Source: Heterodontus francisci (taxonomy: Eukaryota). From it: a DNA stretch of 64,000 nucleotides. The position numbers and the translations under genes are program-made. The stretch covers positions 61,266,868 through 61,330,867 of the forward strand of contig NC_090401.1 in assembly GCF_036365525.1 (NCBI RefSeq). Direction: 5' to 3'. Position 1 is the first letter of the stretch. The number at the start of each line of letters is the position of its first letter. A model generated the notes under the pieces. It had not been told where the DNA came from. It saw nothing but the letters and a program-made list of their open reading frames with translations, and made no database searches. This document shows, piece by piece, positions 1 to 57,619 of the stretch.

Positions 1-2990
1 AAATCACCCTGAAGCCTCTCTGCAACCTCCTCACAACTCATCCTCCCACCCAGTTTTGAGTCATCTGCAAATTTGGAGATATTACATTTAGTTCCCTCAT
101 CTAAATCATTAATATATCTGGTGAATAGCTGGGGTCCTAGCACCGATCCCTGCGGTACCCCACTCGTCACTGCCTGCCATTTGAAAAAAGACCCATTTAT
201 CCCTACTGTTTGTTTCCTGTCTGCCAACCAATTTTCTATCCATCGCAATACACTACCCCCAATCCCATGCGCTTTAATTTTACATGCTAATCTCTTATGT
301 GGGCCTTTGTCGAAAGCCTTCTGAAGTCCAAATAAACCACATCCACTGACTCTCCCTCATCAACTCTACTAGTTACATCCTCGAAGAATTCTAGTAAATT
401 TGTCAAGCATGATTTCGCTTTCGTAAATCCATGCTGACTCTGTCCGATTCTACCACTGCTCTCCAAGTGCTCTGCTATAAAATCTTTGATAATGGACTCT
501 AGAATTTTCCCCACTACCGATGTCAGATTGACTAGTCTATAATTCCCTGCTTTCTCTCTACCTCCATTTTTAAATAGTGGGGTTACATTAGCTACCTTCC
601 AATCTGTAGGAACTGTTCCAGGGTCTATAGAATCTTGGAAGATGACCACCAATGCATCCACTATTTCTAAGGCCACTTCCTTAAGTACTCTGGGATGCAG
701 ACCATCAGGCCCTGGGAATTTATCGGCCTTCAATCCCATCAATTTCCCCAACACCATTTCTCTACTCATTCTGATTTCCTTCAGTTCCTCTCTCTCACTA
801 AACCCTGTGTTCCCCAACATTTCTGGTATGATATTTGTATCCTCCTTTGTGAAGACAGAACCAAAGTATACATTTAGTTGGTCAGTCATTTCTTTGTTCC
901 CCATAATAAATTCCCCTGTTTCTGACTGTAAGGGACCTACATTTGTCTTCACCAATCTTTTTCTCTTCACATACCTATAGAAACTTTTACGGTCAGTTTT
1001 TATGTTCCCCGCAAGCTTGCTCTCGTACTCTATTTTCCCCTTCTTAATCAATCCCTTGGTCCCCCTTTGCTGAATTCTAAATTGCTCCCAATTCTCAGGT
1101 CTGTTGTTTTTTCTGGCGAATTTATATGCCTCTTCCTTGGATCGAATGCTATCTCTAATTTCCCTTGTAAGCCATGGTTTGGCTAGCTTCCCTGTTTTAC
1201 TTTTGTGCCAGACAGGAATAAACAATTGCTGCAGTTCATCAATGCGCTCTTTGAATGTTTGCCATTGCTTTTCCACCATCATCCTTTAAAGTAACGTTTC
1301 CCAATCTATCATAGCCAACTCGCGCCTTATACATTCGTAGTTTCCTTTACTAAGAATCAGGACCCTAGTCTCAGAATCAGCTACGTCACTCTCTATCTTG
1401 ATGAAGAATTCTATCATATTATGGTCGCTCATCCCCAAGGGGTCTTGCACCACTAGATTGTCAATTATTCCTCTCTCATTACACAATACCCAGTCTAGGA
1501 TGGCCTGTTCTCTGGTTGGTTCCTCAACGTATTGGTCTAGAAAACCATCCTGTATACACTCCATGTATTCCTCCTCTCTGGTATTGTGACTAATTTGATT
1601 TGCCCAATCTATATGCAGATTAAATTCACCCATTATTGCAGATGTTCCTTTATCGCATGCATCTCTAATTTCCTGTTTAATGCCGTTCCCAACATCACCA
1701 CTACAGTTTGGGGGGGGTCTATATACAACCCCCACTAACATTTTTTGCCCCTTAGTGTTTCTCAGCTCTACCCATACAGATTCCACATCGTCAGAGCTAA
1801 TATCTTTCCTCACTATTGCGTTAATTTCCTCTTTAACCAGCAATGCAACTCCACTGCCTTTTGCTTTTTTTCTGTCCTTCCTAAATACTGAATACCCCTG
1901 GATGTTCATTTCCCATCCCTGGTCACCTTGCAGCCAGGTCTCCGTAATCCCAACTATATCATACCCGTTTACATCTATTTGCGCGATTAATTCATCCACT
2001 TTATTGCGAATGCTCCGCGTGTTATCCTGAGATCACTACCTTTGAGGTCCTACTTTTCAACTTACTTCCTAACTCCCTATATTCTGCTTTTAGGACCTCA
2101 TCCTTTTTTTTACCTATGTCGTTTGTACCAATGTGTACCATGAACATTGGCTGTTCACCCTCCCCCTTCAGAATGTCCTGTAACCGCTCTGAGACATTCT
2201 TGACCCTAGCACCAGGGAGGCAAAACACACCATCCTGGAGTAAAAGCAAAATACTGCAGATGCTGGAAATCTGAAATAAAAACAAGAAATGCTGGAAATA
2301 CTCAGCAGGTCTGGCAGCATCTGTGGAGAGGGAAGCAGAGTTAACGTTTCAGGTCAGTGACCCTTCTTTAGTACCCCAAGTTCTAAAAAAGGGTCACTGA
2401 CCTGAAACATTAACTCTGCTTCTCTCTGGACAGATACTGCCAGACCTGCTGAGTATTTCCAGCATTTCTTGTGTTTATACCATCCTGGAGTCTCTTTTGC
2501 GGCCAAAGAAATGCCTATCTTTTCCCCTTACAATTGAATCCCCTATAACTATTGCATTCCTACACTTTTTACTCCTCCCCTGTGCAGCAAAGCCAACCGT
2601 GGTGCAACGAATTGGGCTGTTGCTGCTTTCCCCTGAGAGGCCGTTCCCCCCCAACAGTATCCAAAGCAGTATATCTGTTTTGCAGGGGAATAGCCACAGG
2701 AGATTCCTGCACTGCCTGCCTAGTCCTCTTGCTCTGCTTGGTGGTCACTCATTCCCTTCCTGCCTGTGGGGTCTGAGCCTGCGGTGTGACCACCTCTATA
2801 CGTGCTATCCATGATACTTACCGCCTCGCGGATGCTCCACAGTGTCCCCAGCTGCCGCTGCAGCTCCGAAACCTGGGCTTCCAGGAGCTGCAGTTGGAGA
2901 CGCTTCCTGCGCACATACTGGTCCCGGGCACTGGAATTGTTCCCAGCTTCCCACATAGAGCACGAGGAGCACACCACGAGGAGCATACCA
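1..2990 (-). mobile_element. CR1 LINE, degraded and internally deleted (ORF1 zinc finger/esterase, ORF2 APE endonuclease and RT), running off the left edge
   Basis: ORF 1286-1999 has APE motifs (GITETW, GVVYRPP, SDHNMI). ORF 287-1282 has CR1 RT motifs (PGPDGLHP, NYRLVNLTS, QHGF, YLDF). ORF1 pieces: CLPGARV/HIGTND at 2022-2240 and CSSCSMWE at 2720-2986. Confidence 0.92.
2242..2478. mobile_element. Palindromic (fold-back) Penelope-like non-autonomous element inserted in CR1 ORF1
   Basis: Long inverted arms (gaaatgctggaaatactcagcaggtctggcag...ctgccagacctgctgagtatttccagcatttc). 13-bp TSD ACCATCCTGGAGT at 2229-2241 and 2479-2491. Confidence 0.75.
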
Positions 2991-17286: not shown

Positions 17287-17800
17287 CTTGATTGGCACCC
17301 CATCTACCACCTTCAACTTTCACTCCCGCCACCACCGACGGACATTTGCAGCAGTGTGTACCATCTACAAGATGCACTGCAACAACGCACCAAGGCTCCT
17401 TCGACAGCACCTTCCAAACCTGCAAACTCGACCACCTAGAAGGACAAGGGCAGCAGATGCATGGGAACACCACCACCTGCAAGTTTCCCTCCAAATCACA
17501 CACCATCCTGACTTAGAACTATATCGCCGTTCCTTCAGTGTTGCTGGGTCAAAATCCTGGAACTTCCTTCCTAACAGCACTGTGGGTGTACCTACCCCAC
17601 ATGGACTGCAGCAGTTCAAGAAGGCGGCTTTTTTTTATTCATTCAGGGGATGTGGGCGTCATTGGCTATGCCAGCATTTATTGCTGATCCATAATCGCCC
17701 TTGAGAAGGTGGTGGTGAGCTTACCACTTCCTTCTCAAGGGCAATTAGGCATGGTCAATAAACGCTGGCATAGCTGGTGATGCGCACATCCCATGAAAGA
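17287..17800 (+). mobile_element. CR1/L2-group LINE 3' fragment between fabp10 and connexin A
   Basis: ORF 17288-17704 HSRHHRRTFAAVCTIYKMHC...SWNFLPN, matching the copy at 35554-35967. Confidence 0.8.
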
Positions 17801-18194
17801 ATTTTTTTTAAATGCCCCGGTCCCAACTTGAAAAGCCGCCAAACACCCACCACTGTGAATAACGCTGAACACTCGATGAGAGGTATATGGAGACATTAGT
17901 GGAAGTGTACCCCAGCAAGGAATTCACACATTCAGCAGAGGGAAGAAGGAAGAAAATTAGTGGAGGAAAAAACAGGAAGTGTAATCAAATGGTTTTTGCA
18001 ATCAATAGTTCCCAAATTCCCAGATTACAATTGCAGAGCTAAATGTGAAGGATGAATTGGATATTTCATGTAACTGTTTTACTGAGGATACAGGCCTGAG
18101 TTTACACAAATCACTAAATATTCAGATCTCAGTGGGTCTCCAACAAACTTTGATTGACTGTTGTTTGAAGAAGGAACACCGGCTATTCTTTTTT

Positions 18195-18863
18195 TTATTG
18201 TTTTCCACCGGAGAGAGACTGCTTACACTGAATAACACAGTATCTCACAATCAAATAGCACAGTTCAGCAATATTCAGCAAGATGCATACAGCTGAAGTC
18301 ACTAACATGAAAACAGTAAAGATTGTTTTCTCAGTTGGCCTAGAAACAAAACAATCCACAATATTAGGACAGGGATATTCACTGCATTTGACAAGTCTAA
18401 GCATCTTGTAACCTTCATAAACCCAATAGAATAAGTACATAAAGACAGCTTCAAATAACATTTTGAAGAAAATGCTGACCAAGTAAGTCCGAAGAAGAGG
18501 AGCATCGATTTTTGCTTTCTGCAAATCTGCAGACTGATTAAAGACTTTTATATTCTTCTTGCTTTTTTTCCTTTGATATATATGCATACCAATGAGAAAT
18601 GATGGAATGGACACAAAAAGAAGCTGGAAAACCCACAGCCTAATGTGGGAGATGGGGAAGAAACGGTCGTAGCAAACATTCCTGCAGCCAGGCTGCTGTG
18701 TGTTGCACACAAAGTCACTCTGCTCATCTCCCCATACAGTCTCAGCTGCCACCACCAAGACCAGGATACGGAAAATGAAAATGACCGAGAGCCACACTTT
18801 CCCCAGCGACGTTGAGTACTTGTTGACCCCATTCAGCAAAGAATGAAGGGAATGCCAATCCAT
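18195..18863 (-). CDS. Beta-type connexin (GJB1/GJB2-like), copy A, 222 aa, C-tail apparently truncated by frameshift
   Basis: Single-exon ORF with [42 protein letters not shown] and [16 protein letters not shown] (six extracellular Cys). Splice acceptor tttatttttag 11 nt upstream of the ATG (AG at 18875-18876). Confidence 0.93.
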
Positions 18864-21800
18864 TTTGGATTACCCTAAAAATAAATAGCACCAGTTACCT
18901 TACTGCAACTAGGAATCTGATAGGAACATAGGAATTGATAGACAATAAAAACAAAGGCCTCTCTGGTTTGCCTGCTACCAACCAGTTAGTTGCATGATAC
19001 AAGGATAATGGGGTGTTGACTAATAATAGCAATCAATTTCTATCAATTAGTTTACAATAGCCCCAAACAAGAGGCAAGGAAAACCCCAGTGGCGGAATAT
19101 TGATCCAAAGTCACCTGTTCTTCCTAACCATGCTGAATATGTCAATGTCATGTCTCAATTTACTCCTATACTGTATCCCCAAAATATCTGCTTCCCAAAT
19201 TGCTGTAAATTCTGTTATTTAACTATCAATAATAATATAAAATTAAATAAAGTGAACAAAATGGATGCAAAATGGGTGCAGATTTGACATAACTGATCTC
19301 CACCCAATTTTCTGACTGATGACGCTCAATTATGTGTAAAAACATCTACCCTTCTATGCCTAAATGCTAATCGTCAATCATGGTTTACATGACTGTTTAT
19401 CATCAAAATCTCATGCCTTTCCAAATTAGTTAGCATCAAAACTAGTATAGCAACGGGGCTACGTAGGATATTCCAAAATTCATTTTGGCAATTGGTCCTA
19501 TTGAATAGATGTTGCTGGAGACTTGTAGACACAATGTGGAAGCCTGAAATTCCCCACATTGTGAGTTCCTAGTCACAGCTGGAGCTGGTACTAAATAAAG
19601 ATGAGGTTCTTTGCATAAGAGGTTGGGGGGGCAGTGTTGGTGGGCAGGTGTGGGGGAAGAGAACATCAGTCGAGAGAATGTGATACCATGGCTGTCTATA
19701 CTCCCTGACTGCTGATTAGCAGAGGCTATGGAACCTCAATAGGCTGGCTGCTCCACCAATTTCAAGTCAGAGGTTTAAAATTCTGATCCTCTCAGTTGGA
19801 AGTTTAAATTTAACACGGCCAACAAGAACTCCACCAGGAATTAGATGCATACTGCCTGTGGATCAGCTGGAATAGGCATATATATATCACACCACACTTC
19901 CAGAAACTAGGATAAATACCCATTAGAACATTAACTGCATATCCATTACCTCAAAGGAAATAGCCACTTGCCCATCAAACCAGCACAAAAAGTAAAACAC
20001 AATAAATTTACCTCATTGATACATATTCAATAAACCACCATGTAGGTGAGCCATAATCTCATGCGATATCATTAGCAAAAATAGGAAAATTGCACCTTAG
20101 TTTGCACTCACTCCAACAAACTGAAACCTTTTATGATGAAGAGTGACATTTGTCAAGAGAAATTAAATTATGTTGCAGGTGCACATCAACATTTTTTAAA
20201 CAGGACAGTCACAGCTATATTGGAAAAAAACAACATTGAAGAAATCTGAATAGGGTCGACTTGAATTAATTCTGGTCATTTCTACAAATTTGACACTAAC
20301 TCCTGGGCCATAGCTGGCACTGACTTTTGACTAACTCCCTGAGTATTGGTTGTATCAGCCAAATGCTGACATATATCTTCGTCTCAAGAATTTCCTAAAA
20401 GTTGGTGAATATGAAACCTTTGTGTTATAAACACAATTTATGGGAACCATTGATTATAGAAAATATTCCATTTGTTGCTTAACAATAAAGCCTATTCATA
20501 ATTGTTTGATAGAGATTTAACTCTGTCTATCCCAGCTCATACCTGTGCTCAGTATTGCCCTCGCTCCTTTATTTCCAAATTCAGAGATAATCCAAGGCAC
20601 ACTTTAATTGAAACAAAAGCTATTTATTGTAACATATAATCAGGTTTATAGCTCTAGGCAGATTATTATATTCCAAACAGGCCACTGCACTGCCACTTTC
20701 TAACAAACAGAACAAATGAGTTGTATATTCCAGTTAATATATCTTACATAAGCTTAGGAGTTAAAGTCATTCAGTTTCTTGGTTCAATATCCAGGTAACC
20801 AGACCCCCTTCATGGGCTGCAGAATAATGGAGCAAAGATAGCCTGACTCCACTCCCCAGGCAAAAGAAAAGAAAAAATACTGAATCTGAAAACTTATTCA
20901 CGAATATTCTAAGATTCCTTTAGATTTCCTCAAAAAATGACTTAGGTTGAATATAAACTGTGGTAACCAGGTCACAGTGAGCATTTGACTAATGGGCCTC
21001 AGAATGTGTCAAGCAATGATGCATTTTCTGCATGGTGTTTACATTCCAACTTTATATAACTCAGTAGAATAACAAATCTTGACTGAAAGTAGAATTTGTC
21101 ATTTCATAATCTGCTACACCAAAGACTAATCTTTCTTCTCTTGTTCACTTTTCCACAATCAGTCATCACTGATGGACACAGGGTTAAGGCAACATACCAA
21201 GGAGAAGCTCAGTCTAAATCACATTGCACTTAATGAGCTTTCCACATTCCGCTGTTAAAGGCACTTTCATACTGAAGGACTGCCAACAACAGCTACTGTA
21301 CAGCACTCCCACCATTGACAGCATATTTAAAATAAAAGCCCTGAAGTTCTGGAGATATAAAAGAAATGCAGACCCAAATTTCCAGCAGGTATCTAGTTAA
21401 AAGTGAACCTGGGCAACCAGATTCCCACCTTCAGCTCTGAAAATCACAGGTGTCAGCCTCCAACTGCCTTGAGTGAAGCAGCATCAGGAAATATGATAAA
21501 CAGGAGACAGCCGTGCATTGAAGTTATGGACTTCTGTTTGAATGTGCTCTGAGACTTCTTATGACAAGCTCCACTCCTCTATAACTCAACTTTTGTTCAT
21601 TTACATGAACATCAACCAACACTGAGTTATCAGGCATTTTAGGCTCAATTATCTGGTTTTATATAAAATATTGCATTTCATCTAATTCTCTAAGGTTCTA
21701 ACATCCATCTTCTATTCAAAACATAGCTTATAATGATAAGACTTCTAATCTGCTTTAGGTTCTTTATCTTAAATGTTCTATGTATGAATCAGTTTATTTA

Positions 21801-22106
21801 TAATCCTTTTCTGTTTGGTGAACGTATTTTATAGAGTCCGCATTCCCAGAGATCTACTGAAGGTTACAAAAAGCCAGTGATCACAGGCTCACAAGGAACC
21901 TAGAAGTGAATAGGTTATAATGGCTGTAACATTTAACAATGATAAACAGAATAATCTGAAATGCTAAATAAATAGGATACACGTAAGGAGAAAATTAATC
22001 ATTTTCGCTTGATAATATTTCATTGCAAAGTCACACAATGATTTAGTGAGCCATGAAATACATGTGTGTTGTATAATCATAAATAATTCAGAAATCATTG
22101 TCTTTT

Positions 22107-22883
22107 TTAACATGTGGAATTGAGATCTGAATAGCTCTCTTGATCATTATCGAACTTTGCTGTGCTGTTATTTGAGGAAATAATAGCAGCCATTAATTGT
22201 TTGTTTTTTTCATTGCTCTCTGCTACAGAAATCAACCTTCGCTTCCATTGCATAAAGCAATACCTTACAATCAAATAGCACAGTTCAGCAATATTCAGCA
22301 AGATGCATACAGCTGAAGTCACTAACATGAAAACAGTAAAGATTGTTTTCTCAGTTGGCCTAGAAACAAAACAATCCACAATATTAGGACAGGGATATTC
22401 ACTGCATTTGACAAGTCTAAGCATCTTGTAACCTTCATAAACCCAATAGAATAAGTACATAAAGACAGCTTCAAATAACATTTTGAAGAAAATGCTGACC
22501 AAGTAAGTCCAAAGAAGAGGGGCATCAATTTTTACTTTCTGCAAATCTGCAGACTGATTAAAGATTTTTATATTCTTCTTGCCTTTTTTCCTTTGATATA
22601 CATGCATACCAATGAGAAATGATGGAATGGACACAAAGAGAAGCTGGAAAACCCACAGCCTGATGTGGGAGATGGGGAAGAAACGGTCGTAGCAAACATT
22701 CCTGCAGCCAGGCTGCTGTGTGTTGCACACAAAGTCACTCTGCTCATCTCCCCATACAGTCTCAGCTGCCACCACCAAGACCAGGATACGGAAAATGAAA
22801 ATGACCGAGAGCCACACTTTCCCCAGCGACGTTGAGTACTTGTTGACCCCATTCAGCAGAGAATGAAGGAAATACCATCCCAT
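22107..22883 (-). CDS. Beta-type connexin (GJB1/GJB2-like), copy B, 258 aa
   Basis: Same connexin motifs. Acceptor tttattcctag 11 nt upstream of the ATG (AG at 22895-22896). Candidate AATAAA on the - strand at 21793-21798. Confidence 0.95.
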
Positions 22884-24420
22884 TCTTGATCACTCTAGGA
22901 ATAAACAGCACCAGTTACTTTACTAAAGCAGAAAATCTAGAAATGTATCTGCAGATCACTTTAACAATCTTGTATGTGCATACACTTCCTGTTTAACTTC
23001 TAGCATTGATTTTTGGTCGCACTTTTATGTCAGCATTTAACAGTGAAGCTGCGTAAGTGAAAATTTACAACAGAACTTCTGTATATAAACAGTTCACTGT
23101 AATAATGTTGCTGCAGGCTCTGGCTGGTAGGTGGCACTATGGAGCAAATTTCTTTAATTCATGTCTCTAATTCAGGTGGTCCTATTGACCAGTGGATTAA
23201 TGTGTTGATGGTATGGAGTTATCGAGAATACATCCATGCCCCAAATTTTCTGCATTGTGAGTTTCCAATCACTGCAAGAAAAGATGAAGTTCTTTACATA
23301 GACAGAAGAGGGATGTAGCAGAGAGAAGAGATTCCCACCTTTAGCAGTATTCTGTCCCCATCTCCTTTTACACCATCAGGTCAGCAGACTGGCATGGTAA
23401 GGGTTGTAAGTGAACTGCTCTCTGTTTTCCCAGTGAGAGATTTGAGCACAAAAACTGAGAAAGGAAATAAAAGGTGATGTTTTCTGTAACTCCCTGAAAG
23501 GTGCCTGTGGTATAAAAATTTAAATTATTTGTTAGCTGGACAACAAGCCAGTCCTAATATATTCCTGGTCTCTGTTTAATATCTTTCTACCTCTCTTTAA
23601 TAACTCTCTTTTCAGGAATCTGTGATTATTTTGGTTTCTTATAACATAAATGCAAAATATATTTTTCTTTCCAATTTTCTCTGCTCCTGAAGGCTTTTAC
23701 TCGGTATGCGTCTATAGGAATTGACAGCACTCCAGTTCTGCGCCCAAGTGATCATTTCCCATGTGTGTGTCAGTAAGCTGTTTGATTTATGCAGTCAAGT
23801 GCAGTACAAGATACTTATATTTCTGTAAGATGTTACCATTATCTTTAATTTGAAAGGCAAGTTGAATGTCTTTTATTTAAATGATGCATCTTACAACAAG
23901 TTCATTGTGATGTTTTAAAAAGTGGTGTCAACATGATAAAGCATTTTTCAACAGTGTTTATCACGTGCATGCACAGATGTGATTGATAACTCAATGTTGT
24001 TAACTGCACTAGGGCTGACAAATTCACTACTAAAAAACCATAAAAATTCATTTAAAAAGTCTGTGCTGTTATTCCACCTAATGCTACTTTGATTTTTGAC
24101 ATAGAACTATTGAGACTCGAGTGAAAGCATTATTTGGTTTGCCTCCTGCTTTCGGCACATAAACACAGATGAGCTTGTAGATTGTGTATTGAATATGCAG
24201 GGACTGGCTATAATCACACTACATTTACCTTCTCCATCTACATCTTGTGCGCCAGTAACAAATTTGTTTCGCTCTATGTACCTTTTGGGCTATAACTTAA
24301 AATTTGATGATCTTAATCCTGAACTTTTTTTTAAAATCAGCTTTGCTTTCTGAGAGACTTTTAAGTTCTGCATAAACAGATATTAACATCAAGGTGCCTG
24401 TCAAGTATAATGAAAAGCAG

Positions 24421-24645
24421 TAAAATAAAAATAAAATACTGCAGATGCTGGAAATCTGAAATAAAAACAGAAAGTGCTGGAAATGCTCAGCAGGTCAGGC
24501 AAGCATCTGTGGAGAGAGAAGCAGAGTTAACATTTCAGGTCTGTGACCTTTCATCACAGACCTGAAACGTTAAGTCTGCTTCTCTCTCCACAGATGCTGC
24601 CTGGCCTGCTGAGCATTTCCAGCACTTTCTGTTTTTATTATTTAG
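24421..24645. mobile_element. Palindromic Penelope-like non-autonomous element
   Basis: Inverted arms centred near 24550. 12-bp TSD AATGAAAAGCAG at 24409-24420 and 24646-24657. Confidence 0.75.
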
Positions 24646-44456: not shown

Positions 44457-46428
44457 AACATAAGAAATAGGAGGAGGAGTAGGCCATTCAGCCCCTCAAG
44501 CCTTCCCCGCCATCCAATAAAATCATGGCTGATCTGTCCCAGGCCTTAACTCCTCTTTCGGGCCTGCTCCACATAATCCTCAACTCCCCGAGATTTCAAA
44601 AATCTATCTACCTCCTCCTTAAACACATTTAGTGACCTGCCTCCACAACTCTCTGAGGTAGAGAATTCCAGAGATTCACCACCCTCTGAGAGAAGAAATT
44701 CCTTTGCATCTCAGTTTTAAACGTGTGATGCCTTATTCTGTAACTATGTCCCCTAGTTCGAGATTCCCTCACCAGTGGAAACATATTCTCAACATCTACC
44801 CTGTCAAGCCCTCATTAGAATCTTATATGTTTCAATAAGATCACCTCTCATTCTTCTAAACTCCAATGAATAAAGGCCTAACCTGTTTAGTCGTTCTTGA
44901 TAAGACAACCTCTTCATCCCAGGAATTAGCCTAGTGAACCTTTTCTGAACTGCCTCCAATGCTAGTATATCCTTCCTTAAATACAGGGACCAAAACTGTA
45001 CGCAGTACTCCAAGTGTGGCCTCACCAACATCCTGTACAGTTGTAACAAGACTTCCCTATATTTAAATCCTAACCCCCTAGCAATAAAGGCCAAAATTCC
45101 ATTTGCCTTCCTAATTACTAACTTTTTGTGTTTCAGGTACAAGAACACCCAGATCCCTCTGTACTGCAGTATTTTGTAGTCTTTCTCCGTCTAAATAATA
45201 ATCTGTCTTTTTATTTTTCCTACAAAAGTGGATTACCTCACGCTTTCCTGCATTGAACACCATCTGCCAAGTTTTTGCCCACTCACTTAACCTATCTATT
45301 TCCCTCTGCAGATTCTTTGTGTCCTCATCACAACATGCCTTCCCAACTATTTTTGTATTGTCAGCAAATTTGGATACACTACACTCTGTCCCTTCCTCCA
45401 AGTCATTAATATAGATAGTAAATAGTTGAGGCCCTAGGACCGATCCTTGTGGCACCCCACAAGTTACGGCTTTCCAACCTGAAAAAGACCTATTGATCCT
45501 GACTCTCTGCCTTCTGTGTGTTAGCCAAACCTCAATCCACGCCAACACATTACCCTCAATACGCTGAGCTCCTATTTTGTACAATAACCTTTTATGTGGA
45601 ACCTTATCGAACGCCTTCTTAAAATCCAAATACACTGCATCTACCGGTTCCCCTTTATCCATTCTGCTTGTTGTATCCTCAAAGAACTCTAACAAATTTG
45701 TCAAACATGATTTCCCTTCCATAAAACCATGTTGGCTATGTTTTTCTAAATGTTGAGTTGTTTAGTTGAGAGATACAGCACTGAAACAGGCCCTTCGGCC
45801 CACCGAGTCTGTGCTGACCATCAACCACCCATTTATACTAATCCTACACTAATCCCATATTCCTACCACATCCCCACCTGTCCCTATATTTCCCTACCAC
45901 CTACCTACACTCTTCCTCTTCTTCTCTCTTTTGGGCCTCCTTATCTCGAGAGACAATGGATACGCGCCTGGAGGTGGTCAGTGGTTTGTGAAGCAGCGCC
46001 TGGAGTGGCTATAAAGGCCAATTCTGGAGTGACAGGCTCTTCCACAGGTGCTGCAGAGAAATTTGTTTGTCGGGGCTGTTGCACAGTTGGCTCTCCCCTT
46101 GCGCCTCTGTCTTTTTTCCTGCCAACTACTAAGTCTCTTCGACTCGCCACATTTTAGCCTGTACACTAGGGGCAATTTATAATGGCCAATTTACCTATCA
46201 ACCTGCAACTCTTTTGGCTTGTGGGAGGAAACCGGAGCACCCGGAGGAAACCCACGCAGACACAGGGAGAACTTGCAAACTCCACACAGGCAGTACACAG
46301 AATTGAACCCGGGTCGCTGGAGCTGTGAGGCTGCGGTGCTAACCACTGTTCTGCTATTTCTTCCTTAATAATGGACTCCAGCATTTTCCCAATGACAGAT
46401 GTTAAGCTAACTGGTCTATAGTTTCCTG
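44457..46428 (-). mobile_element. CR1 LINE RT and 3' end, itself interrupted by a SINE
   Basis: ORFs 45111-45722 (YLDFKKAFDKV, GVPQGSVLGP, KFADNTK) and 44804-45148. The NYRPVSLTS piece resumes at 46350-46428. Confidence 0.9.
45754..46347 (-). mobile_element. HE1-type V-SINE, interrupted by an RTE 3' end at 45911-46160
   Basis: tRNA head gtggttagcacc...gggttcaatt, V-domain gcgtgggtttcctccgggtgctccggtttcctccca, and CR1-type tail. The RTE piece is flanked by TACACT repeats. Confidence 0.85.
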
Positions 46429-46829: not shown

Positions 46830-48514
46830 ACTCTGCCTGAGCGATAGTGACAGGAGATTCTGTGGTCGCGAACGAGACTCCCGGATGGTATGTTGCCTCC
46901 CGGGTGCCAGGGTCAGGGATGTCTCGGATCGAGTCTACGGGATTCTTAAGGGGGAGGGGGAGCAGCCAGAAGTCGTGGTACAGATAAGTACCAATGACAT
47001 AGCTAGGAAAAGGGATGAGGACCTGAAAAGCGAATATAGGGAGTTAGGTTGGAAGCTAAAAGGCAGGACGAGCAGAGTAGTAATCTCAGGATTTATACCG
47101 GTGCCACGTGCTAGTGAGGCTAGAAACAGAGAGCGAGTGCAGCTGAAAACGTGGCTACGTTGCTGGTGTAGGAGGGAGGGCTTCAGTTATGTGGATCATT
47201 GGGATACCTTCTGGGGAAGGTGGGACCTGTACAAGAAGGACGGGTTGCATCTGAACTGGGCAGGTCATGCCTCACAAGCCTTATTGAATTCTTTGAGGAT
47301 GTGACAAAACACATTGATGAAGGAAGAGCAGTGGATGTGGTGTATATGGATTTTAGCAAGGCGTTTGATAAGGTTCCCCATGGTAGGCTCATTCAGAAAG
47401 TAAGGAGGGATGGGATACAGGGAAAGTTGGCTGTCTGGATACAGAATTGGCTGGCCCATAGAAGACAGAGGGTGGTAGTAGATGGAAAGTATTCAGCCTG
47501 GAGCTCGGTGACCAGTGGTGTTCCGCAGGGATCTATTCTGGGACCTCTGCTCTTTGTGATTTTTATAAATGACTTGGATGAGGAAGTGGAAGGCTGGGTT
47601 AGCAAGTTTGCCGATGACACGAAGGTTGCTGGAGTTTTAAATAGTGTGGAAGGCTGTTGTAGGTTGCAACGGGACATTGACAGGATGCAGAGCTGGGCTG
47701 AGAAGTGGCAGATGGAATTCAACCTGGAAAAGTGTGAAGTGATTCATTTTGGAAGGTCAAATTTGAATGCAGAATACAGGCTTAAAGACAGGATTCTTGG
47801 TAGTGTGGAGGAACAGAGGGATCTTGGGGTCCATGTCCATAGATCGCTCAAAGTTGCCACCCAAGTTGATAGGGTTGTTAAGAAGGCGTATGGTGTGTTG
47901 GCTTTCATTAACAGGGGGATTGAGTTTAAGAGCTGTGAGGTTATGCTGCAGCTCTATAAAGCCCTGGTTAGACCACACTTGGAATATTGTGTTCAGTTCT
48001 GGTTGCCTCATTATAGGAAGGATGTGGAAGCTTTAGAGAGGGTGCAGAGGAGATTTACCAGGATGCTGCCTGGACTGGAGGGCATGTCTTATGAAGAAAG
48101 GTTGAGGGTGCTAGGGCTTTTCTCATTGGAACAAAGAAGGATGAGAGGTGACTTGATAGAGGGGTACAAGATGATGAGAGGCATAGATAGAGTGGATAGC
48201 CAGAGACGTTTTCCCAGGGCGGAAAGGGCTATCACCAGGGGGCATAATTTTAAGGTGATTGGAGGAAGGTTTCGGGGAGATGTCAGAGGTAGGTTCTTTT
48301 GCACAGAGAGTGGTGGGTGCGTGGAATGCGCTGCCAGCGGTGGTAGTAGAAGCAGATACATTAGGGACATTTAAGCGACTCTTGGATAGGTACATGAATG
48401 ATAGTAGAATGAAGGGTATGTAGGTAGTTTGATCTTAGAGTAGGTTAAAGGTTCGGCACAACATCGTGGGCTGAAGGGCCTGTACTGTGCTGTACTGTTC
48501 TATGTTCTTTGTTC
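46830..48514 (+). mobile_element. Relatively young CR1 with an internal deletion joining ORF1 esterase to the ORF2 RT
   Basis: ORF 46885-47304 CLPGARV...DGLHLNW. Uninterrupted RT ORF 47199-48374 (YMDFSKAFDKV, GVPQGSILGP, KFADDTK). (TTCTATG)-like tail. Confidence 0.92.
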
Positions 48515-49946: not shown

Positions 49947-52900
49947 CATTGAGAGAAAAACACTTTTCTCACCTCTGTCTTAAATGGGCCACCCCTTATT
50001 TTTAAACAGTCACCCCTAGTTCTAGATTCTCCCACAAGGGGAAACATCCTTTCCACATCCACCCAGTCAAGACCCCTCAGAACCTTATATGTTTCAATCA
50101 AGTCGCCTCTTACTCTTCTAAACTCCAGCGGATACAAGCCTAGCTTGTCCAACTCTTCCTCATAAGACAACCCACCCATTCCAGATATTAGTCTAGGAAA
50201 CCTTCTCTGAACTGCTTCCAACGCATTTACATCCTTCCTTAAATAAGGAGACTGTTAAGACCAGGTGAGGAAGGGGTCTCAGGCTCCCCTCTGGCCACTT
50301 TCCTGGTTTAGCCATAACAGGGTTTAACTTTTAAAAACAGTGTTTTTAGCTTCACCTCAGTGAGTCCTTGCTCACTGCTTTCGAATTGTAATTGTAAATG
50401 AACCAATCAAACAGGCTTTCTTAAGTTTAAACAAGAAAGAATGTACGTTTATTAGCCTTAACATTCTAACTCAGTTAAAATTTCTAGAAATATGCGATGC
50501 AACCCCGCTAGCATGCATACGAGATATGTCTCTTTGGCCTCCTTATCTCGAGAGACAATGGGTAAGCGCCTGGATGTGGTCAGTGGTGTGTGGAGCAGCG
50601 CCTGGAGTGGCTATAAAGGCCAATTCTAGAGTGACAGGCTCTTACACAGGTGCTGCAGAAAAATTTGTTTGTCGGGGCTGTTACACAGTTGGCTCTCCCC
50701 TTGCGCTTCTGTCATTTTTCCTGCCAACTGCTAAGTCTCTTCGACTCGCACACAAATAGATGTAGAGGAGGAGAAAGAATTCAACGGGAAGGGTTTGGAG
50801 TAGTAGATGGAATTCAGTTACTGTTTTTAGTTTTGCTGTAAAGTCTTTGGTTGGAATTGCGGTATTGTAGTTCTCATTGGGGCCCAATGCACACTTTCAA
50901 ACTTACTTCTCTGGTACCAGAAGGATGAAGAGGTCCTCTGACTTAAGGCTTAAGTTGCTTCCGTGGGTCCCTGTGATTTTGCTTGACAGAGAGAGAGACA
51001 GGGAGATAGCTTCCTTCTCTTTTGTCTTCAAATTGCAGTCTGCCCTTTCTAGGTGGCGCAATTCAAAAAGTCCCCAGGTTGGCCAGCAGGGTAGTCATGT
51101 GACCAGCTCTTTGTTTGAAACAGCATCGTCTGCGAGGATCATTGATTTCAAAAGTTCTCCAGTCACACTCAGTGGGGGGTGGAAGTTTGACTCTTACAAA
51201 GTTAGTGGCTCTCAATGTCTTTTGATCACCAAATGATGACAAAACCCATCTCGCGAATTGAATCAGTGAGTACTCCCATTGTCTCTCTATGCAACTGCCT
51301 CTTGGAATGCAAATGTGCAGCCATGTTTTAGGTGTTCAGCTCTGTGGTCCTTTTAAACAAGTTATGTTCAATGTCCAGTAAAAATTTCAAGTAGTGTTCC
51401 ATATGACAAAATTAATATGTTTCTATTTGGCAGGTGTGATTTCCGTCACAAGACCAATACTGTACACAGTACTTCAGATGTGGTCTCACCAATGTCCTGT
51501 ATAACTGAAGCATAAACTCCCTACTTTTGTATTCAATTCCCCTCACAATAAACGATAACATTCTATTAGCATTCCTAATTACGTGTTGTAACTGCATACT
51601 AACCTTTTGCGATTCATGCACCAGGACATCCAGATCCCTCTGCATCTCAGAGCTCTGCAATCACTCAACATTTAGATAATATGCTTCTTTATTATACTTC
51701 CTGTCAAAATGGACAATTTCACATTTTCCCACATTATACTCCATTTGCCAGATCTTTGCCCACTCACTTAACCTATCTATATCTCTTTGTAGCCTCCTTA
51801 TGACCTCTTTACAACTTATTTTCCTACCTATCTTTGTGCCATCAACAAATTTAGCAACCATACCTTTGATCCTTTCATCCAAGTCATTTATATAAATTGT
51901 ACAAAATTGAGGCCCCAGCACAGATCCCTATAGCACATTACTCGTTACATCTTTCCAACTAGAAAATGACCCATTTATGCCTACTCTCTGTTTCCTGTTA
52001 GCTAACCAACTTCTAACCATGCCAATATGTTACCCCCTACACCAAGAGCTTTTATTTTCTGCAATAACCTTTGATGTGGCACCTTATTAAATGCCTTCTG
52101 GAAATCTAAGTACAGTGCGTCCACTGGTTTTCCCTTTACCCACAGTACATGTTACTTCTTCAAAGACCTCCAATTAATTGGTTAAACATGATTTCCCTTT
52201 CACAAAACCATGTTGGCTCTGCCTGATTACCTTAAATGTTTCTAAGTGCCCTGCTATACTGTCTTTAATAATAGCTTCTAACATTTTCCCTATGATAGAT
52301 GTAAAGCTAACTGGCCTATAGTTTCCTGCTTTCTGTCTCCCTCCCTTTTTGAATAAAGGAGTTACATTCACTATTTTCCAATCTACTGGAACCTTTCCCG
52401 AATCTAGGGAATTTTAGAAAATTAAAACTAACGCATCAACGATCTCACTAGCCACTTCTTTTAAGACCCTAGGATGAAGTCCATCAGAACCCAGGGACTT
52501 GTCAGCCCGCAGCTCCAACAATTTGTTCAGTACCACTTCCCTGGTGATTGTTATTTTCTTGAGTTCCTCCCTTCCTTCCATTTCTTGATTTACAGCTATT
52601 CTTGGGATGTTACTTATATACTCTATTGTGAAGACTGATGCAATATACCTGTTCAATTCATGTGCCATCTCCTTATTTTCCATTATTAATTCCCCAGACT
52701 CACTTTCTATAGGACCAATGCTCAATTTGTTAACTCTTTTCTTTTTTAAATATCTATAGAAACTCCCACAATCTTTTTATATTGCTCGCTCGCTTTCTCT
52801 TGTACTCCAATTTTTCCCTCCTTATTAATCTTTTAGTCATTCTTTGCTGCTTTTTATATTCTGTCTGAACTTCTGACCTGCTGCCCATCTTTGCGCAATG

Positions 52901-53445
52901 ATATGCTTTTTCTTTAATTCTGATAACAGCTTTAACTTTTTTGGTTAACCACAGATGGTGGGTCCTCCCCTTGGAATTTTTCTTTCGCATTGGAATGTAT
53001 CTATTCTGTGTATTCTGAAATATCCCCTTAAATGTCTGCCACTGCATCTCTATTGATCTATCCCTTAACGTACTTTGCCAGTTCACTTTTGCTAGCTCTG
53101 CTTTCATGCCCTCATAACTGCCCTTATTTAAATTTAAAATACTAGTCTTAGATCCACTCTTCTTTCGCCCAAACTGAAAGTAAAATCCAATCATATTATA
53201 ATCGCTGCTGCCTTGGGGCACCTTCACTATGAGATAATTAATTACTCCTGTCTCGTCGCACAATACCAGGTCTAGTATAGCCTGCTCTCTGGTTGGCTCC
53301 AGAATCTGGTGTTCTAAGAAACTATCCCGAAAACATTCTATGAACTCCTCATCTAGGCTACGTTTGCCCATTTGATTTTTCCAGTCTATATGTAGATTAA
53401 AATCCCCTGTGATTATCGCCGTACATTTCTGACAAGCTCCCATTA
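49947..53445 (-). mobile_element. CR1 LINE ORF2 (APE to RT), interrupted by a solo LTR
   Basis: ORFs 52754-53467 (GDFNLHIDW), 52414-52725, 52174-52371, 51661-51921 and 49946-50221. Same subfamily as 7907-9668. Confidence 0.92.
50253..51450 (-). mobile_element. Solo LTR (Gypsy-like) containing an RTE 3' end at 50528-50748
   Basis: TGT...ACA termini. Exact 4-bp TSD AGAC at 50249-50252 and 51451-51454. The CR1 rejoins across it. Confidence 0.85.
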
Positions 53446-54715
53446 TGTCATGCAGTGCAAAGTGCAAGAAACAACTTTCTGCACTTTGCTGATGGGCAGT
53501 TGTGAAGGCATGAGTTTGAATAGGTAATAACTATAATCATGTCATCTCCTAAAGTGAATAAAGTTTTCTATGATTTAAAAAAAAATCAAGTGATGCCAGG
53601 ATCATCACATAATAAAAGTGAACTGGATACTAATGAATGAAATTAGAAATTTTAGTTCTGAATGATGTTGAATGATGATAGAAAGCAAAATAGCATGAGT
53701 AATGCAATTGAAGGAGCGAAAACTAGAATTGGGACAATTTTATGAAAACAAGGAGAAACAGTGGAAATTGACAACACAATAATAGCTGCTTTGTTCAGAG
53801 TTAAAAATAGAACATGCTTTAACATATCCTACGTTTGTGGATATCTTATTCTATCATCACAAATTTCATTCATATATTGATGGCTTTGAAAATGATTTTT
53901 CAAAATAATCTATCACTCTCTTAAGAGACATTATAAATAAGCATACAATCCATCCTTTTCAACGGATTTTGACCTTAAAAATGTTTAAAACCAATGTGAA
54001 AACTAAAATAATAAATAGACTGTAGTGTGTTTCCAGTAGACCAGGCAGCATCTGGACCAGAAACGGAGTCAGGTTCCACCCATCTATTTTTTAAAGCCTG
54101 AAAGAAAGGCTTTTCAGCAAGATGCTCAGAAATATGCTAGAATGTAATCCCAAACATTGGAGGTCTGATTTTTAAAAGTCCATTTCTTTCCCACTTTGAT
54201 TTCTTATGATGTGGATTCATTAAATATTATGGGGTGTCGATAAAATATGCACAAATCCATTGACTGAATGTCCCCTTGCTGAGTTTGGAACAGCAGTAGA
54301 GGCTGACACACACTCAGAGGCCTGAACTTGTATTGAAACTTGGTCAGGTCACACTGGCAGTACTGCGTACAATTCTGGTTGCCAAATTATTAAAAAAAGA
54401 GGCACTGGAGAGGCTGCAAAAAAGTTTCACAAGGTTAATACCAGAAATGCAGGGTATACTTATCAGGAGAGAATGAACATGCTGGGTCTTTTTTCTCTTG
54501 AAAAGAGAAGGGGGAAGGCTGACCGAAAAGAGGTTTTAAAATTATGAAATGTTTTGATGGAGTAGAATATTTCCACTTGTGGGGAACAGCAAATCCAGAG
54601 ACTATCAATATAAGATAGTCATCAAGAAATCAAACAGGGAATTCAGAAGAAACTTCTTTACCCAAAGAGTGGTGAGAATGTGGAATTAACTAGTAGTGAC
54701 CGGGTGAGGTGAATA

Positions 54716-57397: not shown

Positions 57398-57619
57398 AAA
57401 AACGGATACTGCTGGAAATACTCAACAGGTCTGGCTGCATCTGTGGAGAGAGAAACAGAGTTAAGGTTTCAAGTCGATAGCCTTTCATCAGAACTGGCTA
57501 TCATCGACTTGAAACCTTAACTCTGTTTCTCTCTCCACAGATGCAGCCAGACCTGTTAAGTGTTTCCAGTACTTTCTGTTATTTCAGATTTCTGGCATCT
57601 GCAGTATTTTGCTTTTAAG
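57398..57619. mobile_element. Palindromic Penelope-like element in SRSF10 intron 1, with a hammerhead-like core
   Basis: Inverted arms centred near 57490. TSD TCAAAAAAGAAAT (57385-57397) and TCAAAAAAAAAGAAAT (57620-57635). Confidence 0.75.

What the first reader, a model, noticed from the sequence alone, without database searches (positions are those of the whole stretch)
18849..22883. The two connexins differ at the voltage-gating polarity residue (D2 vs G2): candidate rectifying heterotypic pair
Seen: N-termini are MDWHS (copy A) and MGWYF (copy B), and 4 of the 14 core nucleotide differences fall in codons 2-5. Established: in beta connexins the charge at residue 2 sets Vj-gating polarity (Cx26 D2 vs Cx32 N2), and Cx26/Cx32 heterotypic channels rectify. 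Inference: identical extracellular loops should allow docking while the N-terminal charge differs, so this locus may have independently produced a Cx26/Cx32-like pair.
Basis: partly seen in the sequence, partly recalled or inferred. Interest (0 to 1): 0.72.

Follow-up and report, generated by a model that had tools for sequence, protein, structure and literature searches.

The report
Shark connexin twins with different ends
This shark carries two neighbouring gap-junction genes, also found in other sharks and rays, whose channel bodies are nearly identical within a species, likely through repeated gene conversion, while their first amino acids stay different, which is predicted to give the two channels opposite responses to voltage.

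Summary
Observation confirmed: two intact tandem beta connexins (222 and 258 aa) differ at 14 nt in codons 1-205, 4 of them in codons 2-5 (D2 vs G2). They are not Cx26/Cx32 orthologs but gjb11.1 and gjb11.2, a cartilaginous-fish group already listed as a tandem pair in one paper's supplement. New here: D2/G2 holds in 19 of 19 species with both proteins, while the body (residues 14-181) groups by species, not by copy (AU p 1.8e-9) and the ends group by copy. So this is an old duplicate pair whose docking loops are kept alike, likely by gene conversion, with distinct pore-entrance and tail. Published Cx32/Cx32N2D data make opposite gating polarity likely (about 0.6) and rectification of A/B junctions plausible in vitro. 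Against: codons 2-5 sit at the edge of the homogenised tract, G2 is untested, one D2 chimera gates negative, a sawfish record has a single hybrid gene without D2, and no data show the two in touching cells. A rectifying role in the animal: about 0.2. A rival parallel to Cx26 (short tail plus conserved K125 equivalent, CO2 sensing) is open.

The parts
18195..18863 (-). gjb11.1, short copy A, 222 aa, D2, tail of about 14 residues
   Evidence: name by match to supplement entries
22107..22883 (-). gjb11.2, long copy B, 258 aa, G2, tail of about 50 residues without proline
18849..18860 (-). Copy A codons 2-5 (D W H S), net charge -1
22869..22880 (-). Copy B codons 2-5 (G W Y F), net charge 0
18247..18838 (-). 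Homogenised body of copy A (nt +26 to +617); 9 nt differences from copy B, both extracellular loops inside
22267..22858 (-). Homogenised body of copy B (nt +26 to +617)
18195..18239 (-). Copy-specific short C-terminal tail of A
22107..22259 (-). Copy-specific long C-terminal tail of B
22895..23338 (-). GT-AG intron in the 5' leader of copy B, skipped by a contig of run X5 (organism B)
   Evidence: table 8 record 6; ends read
23339..23454 (-). Non-coding leader exon of copy B; a further 184 contig letters lie on nothing in the stretch laid (likely an earlier exon); single place in the genome
   Evidence: acceptor read
18864..19223 (-). Leader region of copy A, covered without a joint by contigs of X8 and X9; holds a splice-acceptor-like site homologous to that of B (AG at 18875-18876) and 4 upstream ATGs with short frames

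Best explanation
The locus holds the two tandem gjb11 connexin genes of sharks and rays, whose membrane and docking parts are nearly identical within each species, likely through repeated gene conversion, while the N-terminus and tail stay copy-specific, which is predicted to give two mutually docking channel types of opposite voltage-gating polarity. Shown: two intact genes; D2 on the short and G2 on the long copy in every species with both; body grouping by species, ends by copy; identical or nearly identical loops. Inferred: one duplication before sharks and rays split (the chimaera record has one gene with N2 and a long tail); conversion as the homogenising process; selection holding both N-termini. 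Predicted from Cx26/Cx32 work: A closes on relative positivity, B on relative negativity; A/B junctions between cells gate asymmetrically and rectify mildly like Cx32/Cx32N2D; mixed hexamers in one cell gate both ways. Most likely use: two separately regulated isoforms with different pore-entrance charge that can still couple; rectification is a probable by-product rather than a shown purpose.
For: Residue 2 is D in 19 of 19 short and G in 19 of 19 long copies; residues 2 and 5 are the only columns of 1-222 with disjoint residue sets. The whale-shark short copy in the supplement also begins M-D-W (read by eye). Body identity within species 0.956, between orthologs 0.87-0.88. Minority residues shared by both copies of a species: 194 against 83 unshared in 14-181, 0 against 112 in 2-13. 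Body tree: copy label needs 14 changes (shuffled mean 13.5), copy clades rejected, p-AU 1.8e-9; tree of the ends: 1 change, 98% of 200 bootstraps. Long-copy residues 1-13 diverge 0.05 between species, less than most blocks of the body. Short-copy residues 2-10 carry charge -1 in 12 sharks and -2 or -3 in 7 rays, long copy 0 in 19 of 19. E1 identical in 16 of 19, E2 in 16 of 19; equivalents of Cx26 K168, N176, D179 invariant in 41 of 41 rows. Polarity rule and Cx32/Cx32N2D rectification: passages of PMC4276742 and PMC2229461. Contigs of runs guessed to be RNA cover A (X8, 17692-19204, depth 945, none on 20008-21009) and spliced B (X5).
Against: Codons 2-5 lie at the edge of the homogenised tract, next to an equally diverged flank, and the 3' edge (183-208) is also less homogenised (0.15-0.18), so escape from conversion may be geometry. 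A Cx26 chimera with D2 but Cx32 loop and tail gates negative, and the gjb11 loop is 9 residues shorter than that of Cx26. Only N2Q and N2A are named as neutral tests in what I read; G2 probably loses Met1 (recalled rule), changing length and charge. Cx26D2N homotypic junctions carried no current, so neutral residue 2 can impair a channel. The Pristis record has one gene, long-type N-terminus on a short-type tail: 1 of 21 elasmobranch species lacks a D2 copy on record. Seven ray short copies have E and one shark R at the conserved G12 turn. Cx31 and Cx43 are recalled to gate negative despite the acid (not found in my searches). The 19 species are related, not independent. Conversion was tested on proteins only.
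Confidence: 0.6

Rival explanations
1. The pair is kept for a rectifying heterotypic junction in the animal: A in one cell type, B in its neighbour, passing current better one way.
For: Conserved charge contrast on identical loops; extra negative charge on ray short copies; both copies have copy-specific contigs in runs X5 and X6, one sample of organism B; precedent of duplicate Cx35/Cx34.7 at a rectifying fish synapse (passage).
Against: No cell-level data. In X5 the A-specific contig (depth 19) is not far above intergenic contigs (depth 7). Cx26 E42, the second rectification determinant, is absent from both. Cx32/Cx26 rectification is called less steep than that of rectifying synapses (abstract). 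Beta connexins mostly sit in non-excitable tissue (recalled).
Confidence: 0.2
2. The difference that matters is the tail: the short copy would be a CO2-opened hemichannel, a parallel to amniote Cx26, and residue 2 tunes permeability rather than polarity.
For: K116, aligned with Cx26 K125, is invariant in 41 of 41 rows inside a variable loop; short tail in A, long tail without proline in 18 of 20 B; PMC6726660 gives motif plus short tail as the two criteria and a coelacanth tandem copy as precedent (passages).
Against: The motif's final Gly is A, T, V or R; the alignment puts N, not R/K, at the place of R104 (K103 lies one off); the loop is 9 residues shorter. Untested. Not exclusive of the best explanation.
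Confidence: 0.2
3. The ends differ only because conversion rarely reaches them; D2/G2 is an old accident kept by ordinary purifying selection, and the genes persist for dosage or different promoters.
For: Tract edge at nt +26 and diverged flank; different leader structure in the contigs; Pristis hybrid; D against neutral residue 2 is common among beta paralogs, also in this genome (D, N, D in the gjb3 cluster; N in gjb8 and gjb1).
Against: In this genome copy A carries B-type residues 11 and 13, so tracts do enter the N-terminus yet 2, 4, 5 differ in 19 of 19; D2 fixed while 8 other short-copy positions in 2-13 vary; N-terminal paralog difference 0.45 against 0.15-0.18 at the 3' edge.
Confidence: 0.25
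4. Recent duplication or assembly artefact in this genome.
For: 95.6% DNA identity over 684 nt.
Against: Same pair with the same ends in 18 other species, same order and chromosome neighbours in skate and bamboo shark, copy-specific contigs.
Confidence: 0.01

Closest known systems
gjb11 (gjb11.1 / gjb11.2) of Mikalsen et al. 2021, PMC7914757
   Same: Same genes: N-termini match the whale-shark entries, tandem order and linkage to gja9, gja4 and the gjb3 cluster match Table S6; one clade with the chimaera gene, 97/95.
   Different: In the passages read the paper names the group and lists positions; 'gene conversion' has 0 hits in its main text and the four gjb11 passages do not discuss N-termini or function.
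Cx26 / Cx32 (GJB2 / GJB1) heterotypic pair
   Same: Acid against neutral residue 2; same docking residues at 54, 168, 176, 179; short tail on the D2 partner.
   Different: Not orthologs (this genome has its own gjb8 and gjb1, both N2). Bodies 97% identical rather than distant; both have E41/T42, no E42; G2 instead of N2; shorter loop.
Engineered Cx32 / Cx32N2D and Cx32*Cx26(NT1-11) pairs (PMC2229461, PMC2229612)
   Same: One body, two N-termini: the closest working model; rectifying when heterotypic, bipolar when heteromeric.
   Different: Here natural and old, with different tails and bulkier residues 4-5.
Tandem beta paralogs GJB2/GJB6, GJB3/4/5 and the three coelacanth gjb8 genes
   Same: Tandem duplicates with different tails; GJB2 and GJB6 also tend to split by lineage (section 2.6); one coelacanth copy has a short tail.
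   Different: That paper explains the split by short coexistence; here body and ends give opposite trees, which points to conversion.

Membership tests
Connexin family | Pfam PF00029 above cut-off, four-helix layout, six loop cysteines | tested here: met
   279 bits against 31.3; cysteine patterns in the sequence; E 1e-93 to Cx26 structures
Beta connexins | Falls in the beta clade; Trp at 3, Gly at 12, single coding exon | tested here: met
   Beta clade 100/100 against 4 alpha rows; W3 and G12 in both window copies; uninterrupted ORFs
gjb11 orthogroup | Clade with chondrichthyan gjb11 | tested here: met
   7 rows, 97/95; the chimaera N-terminus matches supplement entry Cm-gjb11
gjb11 orthogroup | Same chromosome as gja9, gja4, gjb3 cluster | tested here: met
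   All on G000:C31 in the order of Table S6; the names gja9 and gja4 are assigned by length, N-terminus and position, not by a tree
GJB2/GJB6/gjb8 or GJB1 orthogroups | Clade with Cx26/Cx30/gjb8 or Cx32 | tested here: not met
   Other genes of this genome (L001, L002) take those places
Cx26/Cx32-type rectifying pair | Acid against neutral residue 2 | tested here: met
Cx26/Cx32-type rectifying pair | Asymmetry at residue 42 (E42 on the Cx26 side) | tested here: not met
   T42 in both
Cx26/Cx32-type rectifying pair | Compatible docking loops | tested here: met
   E1 and E2 identical in protein; sequence only, docking itself not measured
Cx26/Cx32-type rectifying pair | Opposite Vj polarity and rectifying current measured | not testable with these tools
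   needs recordings
Cx26/Cx32-type rectifying pair | Expressed in adjacent cells | tested here: inconclusive
   bulk contigs only
CO2-sensitive beta connexins | Carbamylation motif K125 with R/K104, short or proline-rich tail | tested here: inconclusive
   K125 equivalent invariant, partner and final Gly not matched, short tail in A

The most novel reading that the evidence does not exclude
Sharks and rays have kept, since before they split, a built-in diode kit: gene conversion continually re-matches the docking surfaces of two connexins while selection protects opposite voltage sensors, and the short D2 copy is an independent re-invention of Cx26 (positive polarity, short tail, perhaps CO2 opening) that pairs with its twin to make one-way junctions in a tissue.
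Probability: 0.2. Interest if true: 0.75.

Novelty: new variant of a known kind. Interest (0 to 1): 0.52.

Why it matters
It is a natural version of the N-terminal swap experiments that defined gap-junction gating polarity, repeated over many lineages on a constant body, so the residue-2 rule, the role of Met1 processing and extra charges at 4, 8, 11 and 12 can be tested on evolved proteins. It also suggests how paralogs can stay docking-compatible while diverging in gating, and warns that connexin trees built on the conserved domains can misdate tandem duplicates.

Tried and rejected
Structure prediction of copy B from a 20-row alignment gave pLDDT 49.7: unusable, no fold search made. No complex was folded: a pass would follow from likeness to solved connexins. 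Profile searches found no further gjb11 clusters and none outside cartilaginous fish among 33 hits at E 1e-95; the 50%-cluster search merges gjb11 with other beta connexins and added nothing. R125 in copy A (Cx26 W134) first looked like a damaging change but is the family norm, 35 of 41 rows. No listed holder run is on record as RNA. Run X8 has no depth on B-specific bins: a part without cover, not used as evidence. A closer look at further runs was not obtained, so tissue pattern and a possible shared leader exon stay open. Oh et al. 2004 and a Cx31 paper were not held; PMC10598745 gave nothing on docking rules, so the docking-class reading is recalled. Three look-ups of earlier scan findings returned nothing. 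Not-in-print searches: 'gjb11' 4 papers, 1 relevant; connexin + gene conversion + concerted evolution 0; connexin + elasmobranch + gap junction beta 0; connexin + gene conversion + tandem 15 listed, none on this by title. Subscription journals are not covered. Rows dropped: P0145 (second record of the chimaera gene) from trees; Pristis and Rhincodon from the 19 pairs.

Full report
Observation. The minus strand holds two intact connexin ORFs, A (18195-18863, 222 aa) and B (22107-22883, 258 aa), starts 4020 nt apart. Codons 1-205 differ at 14 nt, 4 of them in codons 2, 4 and 5 (D/G, H/Y, S/F); the tails diverge from about codon 210. The clustering beats an even spread (p 1.2e-4), but 6 of the 20 nt before the ATG differ as well and the long identical runs begin at nt +26, so codons 2-5 belong to the diverged edge. 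The rest of the window's long frames that I scanned are retroelement pieces (5 of 6 with reverse transcriptase or endonuclease hits).

Identity. The genome is a 6.0 Gb assembly; another of its connexins is identical to a database protein labelled Heterodontus francisci. The best hits are 'beta-2-like' proteins of sharks, rays and a chimaera, then a gap down to about 60% identity. In a tree of 28 rows the two genes join those proteins (97/95), apart from gjb8/GJB2/GJB6, GJB1 and the GJB3/GJB7 arm, each of which has its own gene in this genome. Mikalsen et al. 2021 (PMC7914757; passages, section 2.6, supplement passages and Table S6 read) name this group gjb11 and list gjb11.1 and gjb11.2 as neighbours 5-6.5 kb apart on the chromosome of gja9, gja4 and the gjb3 cluster, as here. 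The pair is therefore on record; its N-terminal contrast and mode of evolution are not in the passages read nor in searches of the open library.

Conservation. Opening all clusters gave 19 species with both proteins, plus Rhincodon (long only), Pristis (one) and Callorhinchus (one). Residue 2 is D in 19 of 19 short and G in 19 of 19 long copies; residues 4 and 5 also differ in 19 of 19. The whale-shark short gene in the supplement begins M-D-W (read by eye), making 20 of 21 elasmobranchs; Pristis is the exception, with a long-type N-terminus (13 of 13) on a short-type tail and no second gene in Table S6, a real deletion hybrid or a collapse. The chimaera gene has N2 and a long tail. G2 is rare elsewhere: 1 of 103 other hits. 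These species span eight orders (recalled) and are not independent samples.

Concerted evolution. Over residues 14-205 the two copies of a species are 95.6% alike, orthologs 87-88%. Minority residues in 14-181 are shared by both copies 194 times and unshared 83 times; in 2-13, 0 and 112. A tree of 14-181 mixes the copies (14 label changes, shuffled mean 13.5) and rejects copy clades (p-AU 1.8e-9); carpet-shark short copies partly group together, so homogenising is not equally recent everywhere. A tree of the 27 end columns separates the copies (1 change, 98% of 200 bootstraps); those columns were chosen after seeing the divergence and the tree has few columns. Repeated gene conversion is the simplest reading (inference; protein data only). 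In this genome A has B-type residues 11 and 13, so tracts reach into the N-terminus but have not crossed 2-5. Whether selection or distance from the homology edge stops them is open: the 3' edge also leaks (0.15-0.18) but less than residues 1-13 (0.45), and the long copy's N-terminus is strongly conserved (0.05).

Expression. Only contigs of runs guessed to be RNA were available. X8 has a 1513-nt contig over A and its leader (depth 945, 1 difference; no depth at 20008-21009). X5 (organism B, a close relative) has a contig that skips the GT-AG intron 22895-23338 before B, a B-specific 3' contig (depth 65) and an A-specific one (depth 19) against intergenic contigs at 7; X6 is alike at lower depth. 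Both genes thus look transcribed; contigs cannot rank them, and nothing is known at cell level.

Mechanism. In Cx26 and Cx32 an acid at residue 2 gives closure on relative positivity, neutral or basic residues the opposite (PMC4276742, passages and one section; PMC11117596 passages). Cx32/Cx32N2D junctions rectify like Cx32/Cx26, N2Q and N2A do not (PMC2229461, abstract and passages). One charged subunit makes a mixed hexamer bipolar (PMC2229612 passages). Both gjb11 copies have Cx32-like E41/T42 and the docking residues of Cx26/Cx32, with E1 and E2 identical here and each identical in 16 of 19 species. So A/B is best modelled by Cx32N2D/Cx32: A positive, B negative polarity (about 0.6), mild rectification if they meet across cells. 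Ray short copies add acids at 4, 8, 11 or 12, the direction expected if negative charge is selected, but E12 replaces a glycine whose change harms human beta connexins (PMC7961983 passages). Against: a D2 chimera gates negative and Cx26D2N homotypic pairs gave no current; G2 is untested in what I read and likely loses Met1 (recalled); Cx31 and Cx43 are recalled exceptions.

Rivals. A rectifying junction in the animal (0.2) has a fish precedent (PMC4197764 passages) but no evidence of adjacent expression. A CO2 reading (0.2): K116, aligned with Cx26 K125, is invariant in 41 of 41 rows and the short tail meets the second published criterion (PMC6726660 passages), but the rest of the motif fits poorly. 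An edge effect with promoter or dosage roles (0.25) is not excluded; acid-against-neutral residue 2 is ordinary among beta paralogs, also in this genome.

Verdict. A real, old and previously named gene pair with an apparently undescribed pattern: shared body, protected ends. New variant of a known kind; interest 0.52, rising to about 0.75 if opposite polarity and adjacent expression are shown.

Noticed in passing
window 18516-18518 and 22536-22538 (codon 116, minus strand): Lysine aligned with Cx26 K125 is invariant in 41 of 41 gjb11 rows within a variable, 9-residue-shorter loop; with the short tail of copy A this hints at CO2 sensing.
   Followed up: partly
P0012 (Pristis pectinata): Single gjb11 with long-copy N-terminus and short-copy tail: deletion between the repeats or assembly collapse.
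   Followed up: partly
P0017, P0141, P0142, P0136, P0139, P0018, P0137, P0014: Short copies of 7 rays have Glu and the sawshark Arg at the conserved Gly12 turn, a position where substitutions cause human skin disease.
   Followed up: no
window codons 124-125 of both genes: The two conserved TM3-start tryptophans of beta connexins (Cx26 W133, W134) are L and R in most gjb11; copy B here has W125.
   Followed up: partly
window 18864-19223: Copy A leader is unspliced in X8 and X9 contigs although it keeps an acceptor-like site; an X5 contig ends at 18875, exactly at that site, so two leader forms or a shared upstream exon may exist. Four upstream ATGs and an AT-rich TATA-like stretch near 19240.
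   Followed up: partly
window 2276-2478, 17637-17802, 24460-24639, 57398-57583: Self-complementary elements of 170-200 nt (80-92% palindromic), three of them related to each other; very deep in contigs of the RNA-guess runs where laid.
   Followed up: no
window 287-2032, 45111-45761, 47172-48374, 52754-53530: Broken LINE-type reverse transcriptase and endonuclease frames.
   Followed up: partly
L001 (G000:C6:52982500-52985000): The true Cx26/Cx30 ortholog gjb8 of this shark has N2, not D2, as does its gjb1; D2 occurs in two of three gjb3-cluster genes.
   Followed up: yes
P0013 (Heptranchias short copy): Tail is unlike all other short copies right after TM4; possibly a frameshift or annotation error.
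   Followed up: no
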